Source: Nitrosopumilus sp.
GTDB taxonomy: Archaea; Thermoproteota; Nitrososphaeria; Nitrososphaerales; Nitrosopumilaceae
Assembly (NCBI GenBank): GCA_965197525.1
Contig: OZ240211.1
Span: 992,001 to 1,056,000, forward strand
Direction: 5' to 3'
DNA length: 64,000 bases
Made by a program: the position numbers and the translations under genes. The number at the start of each line of letters is the position of its first letter. The first letter of the stretch is position 1. This document shows positions 1 through 4,754 of this stretch, one piece after another. The notes beneath the pieces were generated by a model that was given only the letters and a program-made list of their open reading frames with translations, searched no databases and was not told the DNA's origin.

Positions 1-243
1 TTTGAGAAATTACAGTAGACGATTGCTTTATACTGCCAATATGAGCAGACTGCCAAACTAGAGTACATGGATAACTCCAACGAGAACCACAGATACAGCA
101 ACAATAACAAAAAAACCTACTGCTCCTACAAGGATTGACTATAAAGAAAAAAACATTGTGTATAGACGAATCATAATTTTTGATGGATTTAAGACTGAGT
201 CGTAAAGAGATTTATTGATTTTACAATAGGATTATAAACATTA

Positions 244-275
244 TTTCTTATGGTTCTGTCGGGTTAACGGGTGCT
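244..275 (+). repeat. Left TSD (TTTCTTAT, 244-251) and left TIR (GGTTCTGTCGGGTTAACGGGTGCT, 252-275)
   Basis: Exact reverse complement of 1508-1531; TSD identical to 1532-1539. Confidence 0.95.
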
Positions 276-280
276 GAGCA

Positions 281-290
281 ATAAATAATT
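281..290 (+). promoter_or_regulatory. Putative TATA box for tnpB
   Basis: ATAAATAATT lies about 20-30 nt upstream of the GTG at 311, just inside the left TIR. Confidence 0.45.
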
Positions 291-310
291 AACCTTGCAT
301 TCTATACTAC

Positions 311-1507
311 GTGTTGAAGGCACACAAGTCAATAGCACAAAAACATACTCCAAACTCCGACCTAATGGACATGATGGTTACATTCACAAAGATGGTCAAC
401 CACTGCATCAGGATCGGGTTAAGGGAAGATACCCACAACATGAAGCGGATGTCTATATTATGTTACCACGAACTCAGAAACTACGACATTTTATCTTCGT
501 ACAAACTCAATGCAATATCAAGAGCTGCCGGCATCCTGGCAAATAGAGATCAATCAGTCAAACGTGGCATCAAAGTTAGGTACCCAGTCGTAAAAAATCC
601 GTTTATCACAAACTGTTACGGCATAAAACATAATGGTGCTCTGTTGACAATCCCGTACAAGAACAGAAACCCTATCAACATCTTGCTGAACGAACACACT
701 CAAAAAATACTGTCCGATCCCGCCTTGACGGTATGCTCATTTTCATTGACTGCCTTCAACATCAGTCTTTGTATTTCGAAAGAAGTACGAGAGATAGAGT
801 GTACCAAGACAGTGGGAATAGACAGAAATCTTAGAAATGTAACCTGTGGAAATTACGAAGAGGTGACATTCTACAAAACCAACAAGTTGTTATCCATCAA
901 AGAGAACACAATACATGCTAGAACTGGTTTTCGCAGAAATGACCGAAGAAAGAAAGGTCAATTCTACAAAGAAAGGCAACGAAGAATGTCCAACAGAACG
1001 AAACAATACCTGCACAGAATCTCAAAAAGCATAGTGGATAACGCTGTCAAGAAGAAGACTGTCATCGTACTTGAGAATCTGAAAGGAATTAGAAAACTGT
1101 ACAAAAAAGGAAACGGTCAAGGTAACAAATACAGGCGTAGAATGAATGGATGGCAATTCTTTGAACTACAACGCCAAATAGAATACAAAGCCCAATGGGT
1201 CGGGCTCCCAATCAAATTTGTAGACCCAAAACGCACGAGCACGCAATGTCCAAGATGCGGAAAGAAACTCCAAGAGGACATGCAACACAGTCGTAAAATG
1301 TCGTGTAATAATTGCGGATTATACATGGATAGAGATATCATCGCTGCCATGAACATATCACGCAAACTGTCCCCTAGGTTTAGGGATAGTAGAGATGGCA
1401 TACATGAAGCGCAGTCTGGCATTTTTGAGCCAGCAATGATGGAATCCAGTACACCGGTAATCCAGATAGTCGATATGTCAAAGTCGGGTAGTCGGTGCGT
1501 TACTTGA
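311..1507 (+). CDS. tnpB: TnpB family RNA-guided endonuclease (398 aa)
   Basis: RuvC-I VGIDRN, RuvC-II VLENL, Zn ribbon CPRCG..CNNCG, RuvC-III DRDIIAAMNI; N-terminal LCYHELR helix typical of archaeal IS1341-like TnpB. Confidence 0.95.
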   Translation: MLKAHKSIAQKHTPNSDLMDMMVTFTKMVNHCIRIGLREDTHNMKRMSILCYHELRNYDILSSYKLNAISRAAGILANRDQSVKRGIKVRYPVVKNPFITNCYGIKHNGALLTIPYKNRNPINILLNEHTQKILSDPALTVCSFSLTAFNISLCISKEVREIECTKTVGIDRNLRNVTCGNYEEVTFYKTNKLLSIKENTIHARTGFRRNDRRKKGQFYKERQRRMSNRTKQYLHRISKSIVDNAVKKKTVIVLENLKGIRKLYKKGNGQGNKYRRRMNGWQFFELQRQIEYKAQWVGLPIKFVDPKRTSTQCPRCGKKLQEDMQHSRKMSCNNCGLYMDRDIIAAMNISRKLSPRFRDSRDGIHEAQSGIFEPAMMESSTPVIQIVDMSKSGSRCVT

Positions 1508-1531
1508 AGCACCCGTTAACCCGACAGAACC
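1367..1531 (+). ncRNA. Putative TnpB omega/reRNA scaffold overlapping the 3' end of tnpB and the right TIR
   Basis: Hairpin 1367-1389 with GGTT loop; hairpin CTGGC..GCCAG; terminal stem 1483-1525; 3' AACC complementary to the GGTT loop. Folded by eye. Confidence 0.6.
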
Positions 1532-1539
1532 TTTCTTAT
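1508..1539 (+). repeat. Right TIR (1508-1531) and right TSD (1532-1539)
   Basis: AGCACCCGTTAACCCGACAGAACC followed by TTTCTTAT; starts immediately after the tnpB stop codon. Confidence 0.95.
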
Positions 1540-1698
1540 ATACATCCAATATGTCTATCAGATATTACGTGGATAACCATTTGAAAATTCGTAACAGATA
1601 TTGTATAATTTGTACATTTTAACCGATATGTTTATCGTGTTGTCAACATACGGTACGATTTACACTTGTGCAGATTTACAAAATTTTAAAGACCTGTT

Positions 1699-1730
1699 TT
1701 CTTCTTCTTCTTCTTCTTCTTCTTCTTCTT
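1699..1730. repeat. (TTC)10 microsatellite
   Basis: Counted directly; intergenic. Confidence 0.95.
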
Positions 1731-1835
1731 GATCAATCTTGATATGTAATGGAATAACAAATACTGTAATCACATCCAGCTTCTAATCTCAACAATGTAA
1801 GATTAGCTAATAAAAATAAAAGAATGAAAAATCGA

Positions 1836-2597
1836 CTATTTCTTTGATTTGTTAACAAAGGCAGTCATACGTTCTTCTCTGTCAGGATGAGTAAAGCAGT
1901 TTCTCCAAGCAAGTAGTTCTATTGAAAGACCTGTATCAAGATCAGCGTTTCTTCCTTTGTTGATTGCAACCTTGGACATTTGAACACCCATTAGAGAGTT
2001 TTTAGCTATCGCTTGTGCCATCTTGAGGGTCTCTTCTTGCAATGATTCAAGAGGGACTACATGATTTACAAGACCAATCTCTTTGGCTTCTTGGGCTTTG
2101 ATTAGTTTACCAGTGTAAACGAGCTCTTTTGCCTTTGCAATGCCTACAATTCTCATCAATCTTTGTGTTCCACCCCATCCGGGAGGAATACCTATAGTAA
2201 CTTCTGGCTGGCCTAGTCGTGCGGTCTCAGATGCGATTCTAATATCACAAGACATTGCAAGTTCGCATCCTCCTCCTAGTGCAAAGCCATTAACTGCTGC
2301 AATAGTCGGCTGTTTGACCAATTCTACAGTCGCAGTAACTAGCTGACCAATCTTTGCATACTCTACTGACTCATCAGCAGATATCTTTGACATGTATTCA
2401 ATATCAGCACCTGCTGAAAATGCTTTTTGACCCTCACCAGTTAGGATAATAACTTTGACACTATCATCATGATTTAATGCTTCAAAAGTTTTGATTAGTT
2501 CTTTTGCAACATCAATATTCATGGCATTGAGTTTCTCTGGTCTGTTAATAGTAGCAGTGCATATCCCATCAGAAGTAGATGTTAAAACTAGCGACAT
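1836..2597 (-). CDS. Enoyl-CoA hydratase family; 3-hydroxypropionyl-CoA dehydratase/crotonyl-CoA hydratase of the 3HP/4HB cycle
   Basis: Crotonase motifs [19 protein letters not shown]; adjacent to the ADP-forming acyl-CoA synthetase as in Nitrosopumilus. Confidence 0.88.
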
Positions 2598-2636
2598 GAT
2601 AGACCTCCGAGTAATGAGAAACTTAAATGTTATCTA

Positions 2637-4754
2637 TTATTTTAGGTGTTTTCCCCATTGGTAGAGTGCAGAAGCTGCGGCACACCAATCTCTAAGATCA
2701 GAGTATACAGGAATTCCTCTCTCTTCGATGAGTTTTGAGACTTTTTCAGTATACGGACCACCATTGCCACCAACAAGAAGAGGTTTGGTTCTCTTCTTTG
2801 AGAATGCTGTCAGATAATCGACTATTATCTCATCGAGTGGATCGTCTTGAAATACAAACCAAGGCATAAGAATATCAACTCCTGGATCATCCATGTGAGA
2901 TTTGATTGTAAATTGGTAGTCCTCAGCAGTAGCACCACCAGTTACATCAGCAGGATTTCCACTGCCAATAACATATGTGGGTGGGAAATGTTTTAGCATC
3001 TTGTTCTTTGTTTTTTCAGAGACAGTAGCAAGTGAGAGATTTAGTCTATCAAATTGATCAATGGCTCCAATCATGGGTCCTGCACCGTTACTGCACAGGG
3101 CAGCCCTATTTCCTTTGGCAGCTGGCTGCCATGCAAGAGCCTTTGTTACTGCAACTAGTTCTTGATAACTGTCAACTGAGATGAGTCCTGCTTGTTTAAA
3201 TGCCCCCATAATAATTGCGTTAGAACCGCCAAGGGAACCAGTATGGGATGCGGCTTGTTTTGCACCTAGTTCAGTTCGCCCGCTCTTCCAAATTACAATA
3301 GGCTTCTTCTTCTCTTTCATAACTTTTTTAGCGGTGTTGATGAATTTTCTTCCATCTCCAAAACCCTCTACATACAATGCAATTACTTTGCTTTGAGGAT
3401 CATTTGCAAGATACCATATCATATCAGCCTCATCAACATCAGAACGATTGCCATAACTTACCATCTTTGACAATCCAAAAGAGTCAGCACTCTCCAAGAA
3501 ACTAATGCCCATAGTTCCGCTCTGTGACAAGAGGGCTACATTACCCAACTTTGCTCTAACCATCCTTTCTTGACCTTGGAATGCACAATCCAATCGATTT
3601 GCGGCATTAAACATTCCAATACAGTTAGGGCCAATAATTCTAATCTTGTGTTTTTCAGACAATTTTTTTACTTCAGCCTCGTATCCTGCTCGTTGACCTC
3701 CTAACTCTTTACCCCCGCCAGAGACTATCACAACACTATGAACTCCCTTCTTTGCACAATCCTCCAAGACAGGAGCTGTAATTGAGAGATCAACTGATAC
3801 TATAACAAGATCAACACGCCCAGGAATTGATGCAACGGAGGGATAACACTTTTGCCCAAATATTTTAGAGGCTTTTGGATTAATTGGATACACCTTACCC
3901 TTGAAATCATAATTTACAAGACTGTCCAATATAGAATTGCCAATCTTTCCCAGAGTTGATGACGCACCAACTAGGGCAACAGACTTTGGAGTAAAGAAAC
4001 TCTCCATAGATTCTTTGTTTGGTTTTGCTTTAGAGATCGAGTTTTTCCTTACTTTGTCATTTAAGATAATTTTGGCATCAACAATAAAATGAGATTTTGG
4101 ATATACTACAACCGGATTAAAGTCGATACTATTGATATAATCGGCATTATCTACACCTAGTTGTCCTATCTGCTTTAACATGGTGGCAACCATGTTAAGA
4201 TTAATGGGTTCGCTGCCTCTGAAACCTTTGAGAAGTTTTGAGCCCTTGAGCTCGTTTATCATGGATTTAGCATCAGCAGTTGTTATGGGAAGCATTCTAA
4301 AGGCAACGTCTTTCATTACTTCAGTCATTATTCCCCCTAGCCCCACCATTATGATAGGACCAAATTGAGGATCGTTTTGAATGCCTACAATTAGTTCAAC
4401 GCCTTTTGGAACCATCTTTTCAAGAAGAATTCCTTTGACATCAACGCCCCTCTTCTTAGATAGTCTGCCATGCATGTCCTCAAATGTTCTTTTTACATCA
4501 GCCACATTTTCTAGTCCAACCTTTACACCACCAACATCAGTTTTATGTAGAATTTGTGGGGATACTACCTTCATTACAAGAGGAAACCCAATTTTTTTGG
4601 CCTCTCTGGCTGCTTCTTTGGCAGAAGTTACTAGTGCAAATGGAGGAACTTGGAGACCATAATTTTTGAGAATAGATTTTGACAGCTCTTCAGTGATGAC
4701 CTTGTGGTCAGTTTGAATAGTATCTTCAAAAATTTTATTCCCAGATGAAATCAT
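2637..4754 (-). CDS. 3-hydroxypropionate--CoA ligase (ADP-forming)
   Basis: N-terminal ATP-grasp ([16 protein letters not shown]), CoA-binding domain ([15 protein letters not shown]) and phospho-His motif ASHTGS; recognisably the thaumarchaeal enzyme. Confidence 0.88.

What the first reader, a model, noticed from the sequence alone, without database searches (positions are those of the whole stretch)
244..1539. TnpB-only element with perfect IS6-type TIRs and an 8-bp target-site duplication
Seen: a 24-bp perfect TIR pair (252-275, 1508-1531) and identical TTTCTTAT on both sides enclose a single intact tnpB. Only 35 bp separate the left TIR from the start codon and the stop codon touches the right TIR, leaving little room for separate IS200/IS605 ends. 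Established: TnpB normally travels in IS200/IS605 (HUH TnpA, no TIRs, no TSD) or IS607 (serine recombinase) elements, whereas IS6-family ends such as IS257/IS1216 begin GGTTCTGT and make 8-bp TSDs. Inference: this is a non-autonomous DDE-mobilised element whose only cargo is an RNA-guided nuclease, a prokaryotic parallel to Fanzor capture by eukaryotic DDE transposons. Perfect TIRs and TSD imply recent movement. I cannot confirm novelty without a literature/database search.
Basis: partly seen in the sequence, partly recalled or inferred. Interest (0 to 1): 0.9.

Follow-up and report, generated by a model that had tools for sequence, protein, structure and literature searches.

The report
TnpB nuclease riding IS6-like transposon ends
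This is a small archaeal mobile element carrying only the RNA-guided nuclease TnpB and its guide RNA between the ends of an IS6-like transposon; a transposase encoded elsewhere most likely moves it, and every traceable insertion sits next to a short motif that looks like the nuclease's own recognition signal.

Summary
A perfect 24-bp inverted repeat (252-275 / 1508-1531) and an exact 8-bp duplication (TTTCTTAT) enclose one intact tnpB (311-1507).

It is not a one-off. This 2.2-Mb Nitrosopumilus-type genome holds 33 full-length relatives and about 10 miniature derivatives. All have GGTTCTGT-type ends, and 26 have different 8-bp duplications.

The genome encodes at least four clearly IS6-like DDE transposases. 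One element has identical terminal 8-mers, 18 bases shared with one tnpB subfamily, and an 8-bp duplication. No Y1 or serine transposase was found.

New here:
- A covarying RNA structure (1366-1480) marks the guide-RNA scaffold.
- tnpB is under purifying selection (dN/dS about 0.1).
- All 37 duplication-flanked members of this TnpB clade, in six genomes, have T-A/G immediately 5' of the duplication on the tnpB side only. Only 1 of 12 sides of elements lacking the RNA module has it.

This fits a TnpB recognition motif with the guide read from the right flank. That part is inferred, not shown.

TnpB in DDE transposons was published in 2023, but I found no paper naming IS6. The scan flagged this family before on other DNA.

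The parts
241..243 (+). TTA: candidate TnpB recognition motif (TAM), immediately 5' of the left target duplication
   Evidence: T at -2 and A/G at -1 in 37 of 37 duplication-flanked members of this clade, against a background of 0.145. Function as a TAM is inferred.
244..251 (.). Left copy of the 8-bp target-site duplication (TTTCTTAT)
252..275 (+). Left terminal inverted repeat, IS6-like (GG tip, CTGT motif)
   Evidence: 24/24. Family-wide terminus. Motif as described for IS6 in PMC7986276.
280..292 (+). AT-rich TATA-like stretch upstream of tnpB, a possible archaeal promoter
   Evidence: Read from the sequence only; not tested
311..1507 (+). tnpB, 398 aa, with RuvC motifs around D171, E255 and D342 and a CxxC...CxxC zinc finger
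   Evidence: dN/dS is about 0.10 across copies.
1366..1485 (+). Conserved structured RNA (candidate omega/reRNA scaffold core). Helices: 1366-1372/1384-1390, 1396-1402/1474-1480, 1439-1443/1461-1465. The core ends ...ATGTCAAAGTC.
   Evidence: RNAalifold on 14 diverged members: 15 of 22 pairs compensatory. Controls: 96.6% paired against 67.7% in shuffles and 29-46% when slid. dS drops about 3.3-fold in this overlap. The miniature derivatives retain it.
1486..1507 (+). Subfamily-specific spacer between the scaffold core and the right inverted repeat. In this copy it can pair with the inner part of the repeat.
   Evidence: The spacer is absent in G021 relatives, and the pairing is not supported by covariation.
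1508..1531 (-). Right terminal inverted repeat
1532..1539 (.). Right copy of the 8-bp target-site duplication; predicted first 8 nt of the guide
   Evidence: The guide role is inferred from the position of the TTR motif.
1532..1547 (+). Predicted guide segment of the omega RNA (duplication plus right flank; length assumed to be about 16 nt)
   Evidence: Inference only. Based on TAM geometry and on the precedent of TIR-bounded Fanzor reRNAs that extend about 15 nt outward (PMC10711439).

Best explanation
The element (252-1531) is a non-autonomous transposon. It has the ends of an archaeal IS6-like insertion sequence but carries an OMEGA module (tnpB plus its overlapping guide-RNA gene) instead of a transposase. 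IS6-like DDE transposases with an N-terminal zinc-binding extension, encoded by a few autonomous elements elsewhere in the genome, most likely bind the GGTTCTGT-type ends and insert the element with an 8-bp staggered cut. This step is inferred from the shared ends and the equal duplication length.

The RNA is transcribed from the 3' part of tnpB. Its conserved scaffold (1366-1485) continues through the spacer and the right inverted repeat and reads out into the flank. The guide is therefore the 8-bp duplication plus the DNA to its right. In a chromosome that lacks the insertion, that same sequence is preceded by T-T-A/G, which serves as the TnpB recognition motif. TnpB can then cut empty sites but not occupied ones: at the left junction only 8 nt match the guide, and at the right junction the motif is missing.

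Repair of the cut from an occupied copy would copy the element in (homing). This would explain why only insertions that landed right after the motif, in the right orientation, are seen. The miniature derivatives that keep only the ends and the RNA gene would use TnpB supplied in trans.
For: Shown:
- The layout recurs. There are 33 full-length copies (31 with intact ORFs of at least 395 codons) and about 10 miniature copies, with different 8-bp duplications.
- Autonomous elements have the same tips and 8-bp duplications. Their transposases pass Pfam PF13610 and hit the NCBIfam IS6 model best and over its full length. The element at G000 746475 and three tnpB copies share 18 terminal bases.
- A six-frame search of the 99%-complete genome finds no Y1 (PF01797) or serine recombinase (PF00239), while the control genomes are positive.
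- tnpB is under purifying selection (median dN/dS 0.10). Synonymous change drops from 1.08 to 0.32 where the RNA overlaps.
- The RNA structure covaries, with shuffle and slide controls.
- T(-2)R(-1) is found 5' of the duplication, on the tnpB side, in 37 of 37 cases across six genomes (binomial p about 1e-31). It is found on only 4 of 24 mirror sides and on 1 of 12 sides of elements lacking the RNA core (Fisher p 4e-10).
- A second TnpB clade (35-39% identical) with the same kind of ends shows TAT in 3 of 3 cases. This argues that the motif follows the nuclease, not the transposase.
- Precedent: in TIR/TSD-bounded Fanzor elements the inverted repeat is part of the reRNA and the RNA runs about 15 nt outward (PMC10711439).
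Against: - There is no experiment, and no RNA 5' or 3' end was mapped. The public runs are kept only as contigs, which cannot show RNA ends.
- No empty allele was recovered.
- The control set of elements lacking the RNA core is small: 6 elements, 12 sides.
- The transposases fall just below NCBIfam's IS6 cut-off (103 and 121 bits against 125). At 378-383 aa they are much longer than typical IS6 enzymes.
- No autonomous element carries this copy's own inner repeat sequence; only the terminal 8 bases are shared.
- IS6-family elements are described as replicative (cointegrate-forming), so the classical role of restoring an excised copy does not apply. Homing needs empty copies in the same cell or DNA exchange between cells, and neither was shown for this organism.
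- A spacer of 0-110 nt between the scaffold core and the guide is unusual for known omega RNAs.
Confidence: 0.72

Rival explanations
1. The element is moved by the IS6-like transposase, but the TTR motif is that transposase's own asymmetric target preference. TnpB would then be a passenger whose guide and motif have nothing to do with the insertion site.
For: The control set without the RNA core is small (6 elements). The autonomous elements have different inner repeat sequences from most tnpB subfamilies, so a different preference cannot be excluded.
Against: The motif is one-sided relative to the cargo, although the ends are symmetrical (4 of 24 on the mirror side). It is absent from all 5 transposase-bearing elements, 10 sides. 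It is present in miniature elements only when they keep the RNA core, and on the side set by the core's orientation. A different TnpB clade on similar ends has a different motif, TAT in 3 of 3.
Confidence: 0.12
2. The guide is internal. The scaffold ends at ...AAAGTC, and the next 16-20 nt (spacer and/or right inverted repeat) act as a fixed guide, so TnpB targets transposon ends, for example those of competing or sister elements.
For: Sequence conservation drops sharply right after the core. In G021 relatives the core abuts the inverted repeat directly.
Against: This model does not explain the TTR motif outside the element. The sequence after the core differs between subfamilies in both length and content. 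The published precedent places inverted repeats inside the scaffold.
Confidence: 0.06
3. It is an ordinary IS200/IS605 (IS1341-type) tnpB element that once landed inside an IS6-type miniature element, a chance composite.
For: TnpB-only elements are usually filed under IS200/IS605. The TnpB protein itself is a typical one.
Against: All 33 full-length copies found with ends, and relatives down to 33% identity in other genera, lie directly between such ends with 8-bp duplications. Only 35 nt and 0 nt separate the ORF from the ends. The genome has no Y1 or serine transposase.
Confidence: 0.02
4. TnpB takes part in integration itself. Its binding to the motif positions the DDE transposase so that the staggered cut falls right after TTR.
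For: The motif is present in 37 of 37 cases with exact spacing. Post-insertion selection must be very strong to give that in a lineage that may be largely clonal.
Against: No such mechanism is known for TnpB. A guide taken from the old site cannot recognise a new one. No fusion or conserved linkage between TnpB and the transposase was seen.
Confidence: 0.08

Closest known systems
DDE-transposase-associated TnpB branches (DDE-1 to DDE-6) and solo TnpBs with matching ends (Altae-Tran et al. 2023, PNAS, PMC10691335; a 2026 review, PMC13565253, names ISL2, IS630 and IS1031)
   Same: A prokaryotic TnpB lies between inverted terminal repeats. The 3' end of tnpB is close to the transposon end. Solo copies carry ends like those of transposase-bearing elements, which implies mobilisation in trans.
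   Different: IS6 is not named in the text I could read (the supplement is not held). Here the duplication is 8 bp of any sequence, so the recognition motif lies outside it. RNA-only miniature derivatives and a one-sided motif at every traceable insertion are documented here.
Fanzor elements in eukaryotic TIR/TSD DNA transposons (Bao and Jurka 2013; Saito 2023; Yoon et al. 2023, PMC10711439)
   Same: A TnpB-family nuclease is carried as cargo of cut- or copy-type transposons. The inverted repeat is embedded in the guide-RNA scaffold, the RNA reads out into the flank, and non-autonomous nuclease-only copies exist.
   Different: This element is archaeal, and its TnpB is a typical one with the usual RuvC-II glutamate position (alignment). 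Fanzor duplications are short and of fixed sequence and are absorbed into the scaffold or motif. Here the duplication is variable and would be the start of the guide.
IS6 family (IS26, IS257, archaeal ISH14 and ISPfu types; Varani et al. 2021, PMC7986276)
   Same: 8-bp target duplication, GG tips with a CTGT motif in the inverted repeats, and a DDE transposase matching the IS240/IS6 profile.
   Different: The transposase is 378-383 aa, with an N-terminal zinc-binding extension, against 213-254 aa. The autonomous element is 1.97 kb against about 0.8 kb. The score falls just below NCBIfam's IS6 cut-off. The review lists one passenger-carrying member, two miniature elements and no TnpB.
IS1341-group (tnpB-only) elements of IS200/IS605, with ISDra2 TnpB/omega RNA as the functional model
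   Same: TnpB as the sole protein, a guide-RNA scaffold overlapping the 3' end of tnpB, and a T-rich motif 5' of the target.
   Different: IS200/IS605 elements have no inverted terminal repeats and no target duplication, and they depend on a Y1 transposase. This element has both features, and the genome lacks Y1.

Membership tests
TnpB / OMEGA RNA-guided nuclease | Protein matches the curated TnpB family model above its cut-off | tested here: met
   NF040570 at 133.3 bits against a cut-off of 100. PF07282 at 74.8 bits against 26.3.
TnpB / OMEGA RNA-guided nuclease | Intact RuvC D-E-D motifs and a zinc finger | tested here: met
   GIDRN at residue 169, VLENL at 253, DRDII at 340, CPRCG at 313 and CNNCG at 332. 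The E and the RuvC-III D align to those of a solved Cas12f/TnpB-like chain. Enzymatic activity was not tested.
TnpB / OMEGA RNA-guided nuclease | Structured guide-RNA scaffold overlapping or following the 3' end of tnpB | tested here: met
   Covariation: 15 of 21 pairs compensatory, with controls. Synonymous-rate drop in the overlap. No Rfam family matches.
TnpB / OMEGA RNA-guided nuclease | Guide taken from the DNA flanking the right end, and a TAM 5' of the target in the empty site | tested here: inconclusive
   A one-sided T-R motif is present in 37 of 37 cases and fits this feature. RNA ends and cleavage were not observed.
IS6 family (ends and transposase of the partner elements) | 8-bp target-site duplication | tested here: met
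   26 tnpB or RNA-bearing elements and 2 transposase-bearing elements in this genome have exact 8-bp duplications.
IS6 family (ends and transposase of the partner elements) | Short terminal inverted repeats with GG tips and a conserved cTGTt motif | tested here: met
   GGTTCTGT is invariant across subfamilies. The motif definition is from PMC7986276.
IS6 family (ends and transposase of the partner elements) | DDE transposase of the IS6/IS240 type | tested here: inconclusive
   Pfam PF13610 passes (42-53 bits against 27). NCBIfam NF033587 is the best hit over the full profile, but at 102.8 and 120.6 bits it is below the 125-bit cut-off. Hence 'IS6-like'.
IS6 family (ends and transposase of the partner elements) | Compact size (about 0.7-0.9 kb; transposase 213-254 aa) | tested here: not met
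   The autonomous element is 1970 bp and its transposase is 378 aa, with a SWIM/zinc-binding N-terminal extension. The review does list a few longer members.
IS6 family (ends and transposase of the partner elements) | Transposition through cointegrates (copy-in) | not testable with these tools
   Only indirect: 19 of 43 members lack a perfect duplication, and one pair in the related MAG has swapped flanks. Recombination between copies explains that equally well.
IS200/IS605 (IS1341 group) | No terminal inverted repeats, no target duplication, subterminal hairpins | tested here: not met
   A perfect 24-bp inverted repeat and an 8-bp duplication are present.
IS200/IS605 or IS607 | A Y1 (HUH) or serine TnpA is available in the genome | tested here: not met
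   PF01797 and PF00239 give no match in the 99%-complete genome, with positive controls.

The most novel reading that the evidence does not exclude
In this archaeal lineage the TnpB/guide-RNA module decides which insertions of a DDE (IS6-like) transposon survive. The transposase itself shows no motif preference, yet only insertions that land immediately 3' of T-T-A/G, in the orientation that lets the read-out guide plus that motif recognise the empty site, are ever seen. This implies RNA-guided homing (or TnpB-assisted integration) for a transposon type that is not known to excise. RNA-only miniature elements would exploit the same nuclease in trans.
Probability: 0.5. Interest if true: 0.75.

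Novelty: new variant of a known kind. Interest (0 to 1): 0.6.

Why it matters
TnpB's accepted role is to restore IS200/IS605 or IS607 elements after they excise scarlessly. How it benefits a DDE transposon, especially one related to a family described as copy-in, is an open question; a 2026 review discusses it only in theory.

This family offers a natural data set to address it:
- dozens of independent insertions, each with a readable 8-bp duplication;
- a strictly one-sided motif next to each;
- matching transposase-only elements without the motif;
- RNA-only miniature derivatives.

This makes the question directly testable by TAM assay, by a transposition assay with and without TnpB, and by population data. 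It also predicts a compact archaeal TnpB with a short TTR motif.

Finally, it adds a case of transposon expansion in a Nitrosopumilus-type genome: about 2% of the genome is full-length copies of this one family.

Tried and rejected
- Rfam scan of window 1-2000 at E <= 1: no family matched.
- My by-eye idea that the bases just after the scaffold core form a hairpin with the inner part of the right inverted repeat, co-varying between subfamilies, failed its control. Cognate pairs score 11.3 of 18 and non-cognate pairs 10.9. G021 relatives lack the spacer altogether. In the window copy alone the hairpin is predicted.
- Empty-site search. In other genomes of the genus only an 85-nt block and the enoyl-CoA hydratase gene are alignable, so no base-level empty site is available. 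The related MAG has no match to the non-conserved flanks.
- Reads. Four runs were laid (two DNA, two sponge metatranscriptome), all kept as contigs. There was no joint skipping the element, and RNA ends cannot be read from contigs. RNA-library contigs cover parts of tnpB and the scaffold. One continues from the core for 72 letters into a sister copy's spacer. By my count that would reach about 16 nt past that copy's end, but only its first 30 letters were shown, so I treat it as a weak hint only.
- ARAGORN on the conserved 85-nt block upstream: no tRNA.
- Search for reciprocal 8-mer exchange among the duplication-less copies of this genome: none was convincing.
- A generic inverted-repeat finder picked shifted registers. 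I replaced it with a terminus-anchored search.
- Literature: whole-word search for 'IS6' with 'TnpB' gave 22 papers, none describing such an element. The supplement of PMC10691335, which could name DDE-1 to DDE-5, is not held.

Full report
**What is in the sequence.**
- A 24-nt perfect inverted repeat lies at 252-275 and 1508-1531.
- It is bracketed by TTTCTTAT at 244-251 and 1532-1539.
- It encloses one ORF, 311-1507 on the plus strand, 398 aa.
- The ORF starts 35 nt after the left arm, and its stop codon touches the right arm.
- The protein is a TnpB. Pfam PF07282 scores 6e-21. NCBIfam NF040570 scores 133 bits against a cut-off of 100.
- The three RuvC motifs and both CxxC pairs are in place.

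**It is a family, and it has moved many times.** The window lies in a single-contig genome of 2.21 Mb, 39.6% G+C and 99% complete.
- The genome holds 33 full-length relatives of 1.28-1.45 kb at 77-87% identity. 31 of them keep an ORF of at least 395 codons.
- It also holds about 10 derivatives of 259-655 bp that keep only the 3' part of tnpB.
- Together the full-length copies make up about 2% of the genome.
- All are bounded by inverted repeats beginning GGTTCTGT. The inner repeat bases define several subfamilies.
- 21 full-length and 5 short or remnant members have exact 8-bp duplications, each of a different sequence. These are independent insertions.
- Of 43 members with ends, 19 lack a perfect duplication.
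- In a related Nitrosopumilus MAG chromosome (OZ245003.1), two inverted copies have exactly swapped their 8-mers. Recombination between copies therefore explains at least part of the missing duplications.

**Who moves it.**
- Elements with the same tips and no tnpB encode DDE transposases. One is a 1,970-bp element (G000 746475-748444) with perfect 26-bp repeats, an 8-bp duplication and a 378-aa transposase. Another is a 3,190-bp element with 40/40 repeats that also carries a DNA methyltransferase gene. There are also broken or nested versions.
- At least four intact transposase genes are clearly of this type (37-100% identical to the 378-aa protein). Two more distant matches also exist.
- The two transposases that I scanned pass Pfam's IS240/IS6 domain threshold. 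They hit NCBIfam's IS6 model best and over its whole length, at 103 and 121 bits, with the next family (IS1) at 55-61 bits. They stay just under the 125-bit cut-off and carry an extra N-terminal zinc-binding region. I therefore call them IS6-like.
- The ends fit the IS6 description: GG tips, a cTGTt motif and an 8-bp repeat (PMC7986276).
- Three tnpB copies share 18 terminal bases with the 1,970-bp element.
- The window copy shares only the terminal 8 bases with any autonomous element found.
- The genome has no Y1 transposase and no serine recombinase, while both searches are positive in control genomes.
- Mobilisation in trans by the IS6-like enzymes is therefore the best-supported mechanism, but it remains an inference.

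**The cargo includes an RNA gene.**
- Conservation across copies rises in the last third of the element and collapses right after ...ATGTCAAAGTC at 1485.
- An alignment of 14 members from nine genomes (48-87% protein identity) gives a consensus fold of 22 pairs, 15 of which keep pairing through changes on both sides.
- Counting 21 of these pairs, 96.6% of cells are paired. Shuffles give 67.7 +/- 2.1% (0 of 500 reach the observed value), and sliding the partner gives 29-46%.
- The helices are 1366-1372/1384-1390, 1396-1402/1474-1480 and 1439-1443/1461-1465.
- Median dN/dS is 0.10 upstream of this region. Inside it, dS falls from 1.08 to 0.32. That is what a second, nucleotide-level constraint predicts.
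- The short derivatives keep this region. One 208-bp element has it on the opposite strand.
- No Rfam family matches.

**A one-sided motif at every traceable insertion.** I oriented each copy by tnpB (or by the RNA core) and looked at the bases immediately 5' of the left duplication.
- They read T at -2 and A or G at -1 in 26 of 26 copies in this genome. The same holds in 7 of 7 in the MAG and in one copy each in G021, G169, G170 and G209. That is 37 of 37 against a background of 0.145 (binomial p about 1e-31).
- T at -3 is frequent (28 of 37).
- The mirror position on the right side has the motif in 4 of 24 cases.
- Elements with the same kind of ends but no RNA core (five with transposase genes, plus one 851-bp element) have it on 1 of 12 sides (Fisher p 4e-10).
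- 14 of 19 copies without a duplication still have it on the left. This is expected if they arose by exchange between copies that each had it.
- A different TnpB clade (35-39% identical) on similar ends shows TAT in 3 of 3 cases.
- The window copy has TTA at 241-243.

**How it most likely works.**
- In the empty site, the motif directly precedes the 8 bases that become the duplication, followed by the right flank. An RNA that continues through the right repeat and out of the element would carry that same stretch (duplication plus right flank) as its guide. This is the TnpB geometry: TAM, then target.
- In the occupied site, the left junction matches only 8 nt of the guide and the right junction lacks the motif. 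The element would therefore be immune, while empty copies would be cut and repaired from an occupied copy.
- For TIR/TSD-bounded Fanzor elements, inverted repeats inside the reRNA and read-out of about 15 nt have been shown experimentally (PMC10711439).
- I could not map RNA ends here, because the public runs are contigs only.
- The variable spacer of 0-110 nt between the core and the repeat is unusual, and my hairpin idea for it failed its control.
- Because IS6-type elements are thought not to excise, the benefit would be homing into empty copies, not restoration after excision.
- TnpB helping integration directly is a less likely alternative that the data do not exclude.

**Comparison with what is known.**
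- Altae-Tran et al. 2023 (PMC10691335) report six TnpB branches linked to DDE transposases, all with inverted terminal repeats. They also report solo TnpBs whose ends match transposase-bearing elements, and they propose mobilisation in trans.
- A 2026 review names ISL2, IS630 and IS1031 (PMC13565253).
- IS6 is not named in any text I could read. The 2021 IS6 review lists one passenger-carrying member and no TnpB.
- A whole-word literature search found nothing on IS6 with TnpB as one element.
- The kind is therefore known. New to my knowledge are the IS6-like carrier, the variable 8-bp duplication with the motif outside it, the RNA-only miniature derivatives, and the complete one-sided motif statistics.
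- Earlier notes of this scan describe the same family in other windows of this genome and similar elements in Asgard, Bathyarchaeia and Nitrososphaera genomes. Two of them mention a TTG/TTA or TTTR motif. My counts were made independently and agree.

**Verdict.** This is a new variant of a published kind. It is of moderate to high interest, because it makes the role of TnpB in a DDE transposon testable.

Noticed in passing
L033 (G000 699962-703151), outside the window: A 3,190-bp IS6-like element with perfect 40/40 inverted repeats. Besides its 383-aa transposase it carries a 333-aa N6/N4 DNA methyltransferase gene (PF01555, 1e-42). This is a second kind of passenger on the same transposon type.
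   Followed up: partly
G000 143852, 516420, 548812, 736087, 803351, 852600, 870887, 1385894, 2108878 (outside the window): Miniature elements of 208-497 bp keep only the two IS6-like ends and the guide-RNA scaffold region of tnpB. The four with duplications all have TTA on the side set by the RNA's orientation.
   Followed up: partly
L072 and L073 (Nitrosopumilus MAG OZ245003.1, about 126 kb apart, inverted): Two copies have exactly swapped their flanking 8-mers (TAGAAACT and TTATGTTA). This is the signature of an inversion by recombination between two copies.
   Followed up: partly
window 1700-1732: A run of about 10 TTC (CTT) trinucleotide repeats in the intergenic DNA to the right of the element. 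Read-laying reported that reads seem cut at 1691-1739.
   Followed up: no
L001 1102-1186 (G000 991845-991929, just upstream of the window): An approximately 85-nt block is 78-90% conserved in 70 of 80 genomes of the genus. There it lies only about 40-60 nt from the enoyl-CoA hydratase gene; here the gap is about 1.9 kb (the element plus about 590 nt of extra DNA). ARAGORN does not call it a tRNA, and its identity is unknown.
   Followed up: partly
G000 291139-291164 (outside the window): A solo end identical over 26 nt to this window's left inverted repeat, followed by unrelated DNA. It may be a remnant of a lost sister copy.
   Followed up: partly
L049, L051 (G021) and L134 (G153): A second TnpB clade (35-39% identical to the window's protein) also lies between GGTTCTGT-type ends with 8-bp duplications. 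All three copies have TAT instead of TTR 5' of the duplication.
   Followed up: partly
window 1836-4754, minus strand: The neighbouring genes are an enoyl-CoA hydratase-like ORF (253 aa) and a 705-aa ADP-forming acyl-CoA synthetase-like ORF. That pairing is typical of ammonia-oxidising archaea. They are named from reading the translations only.
   Followed up: no
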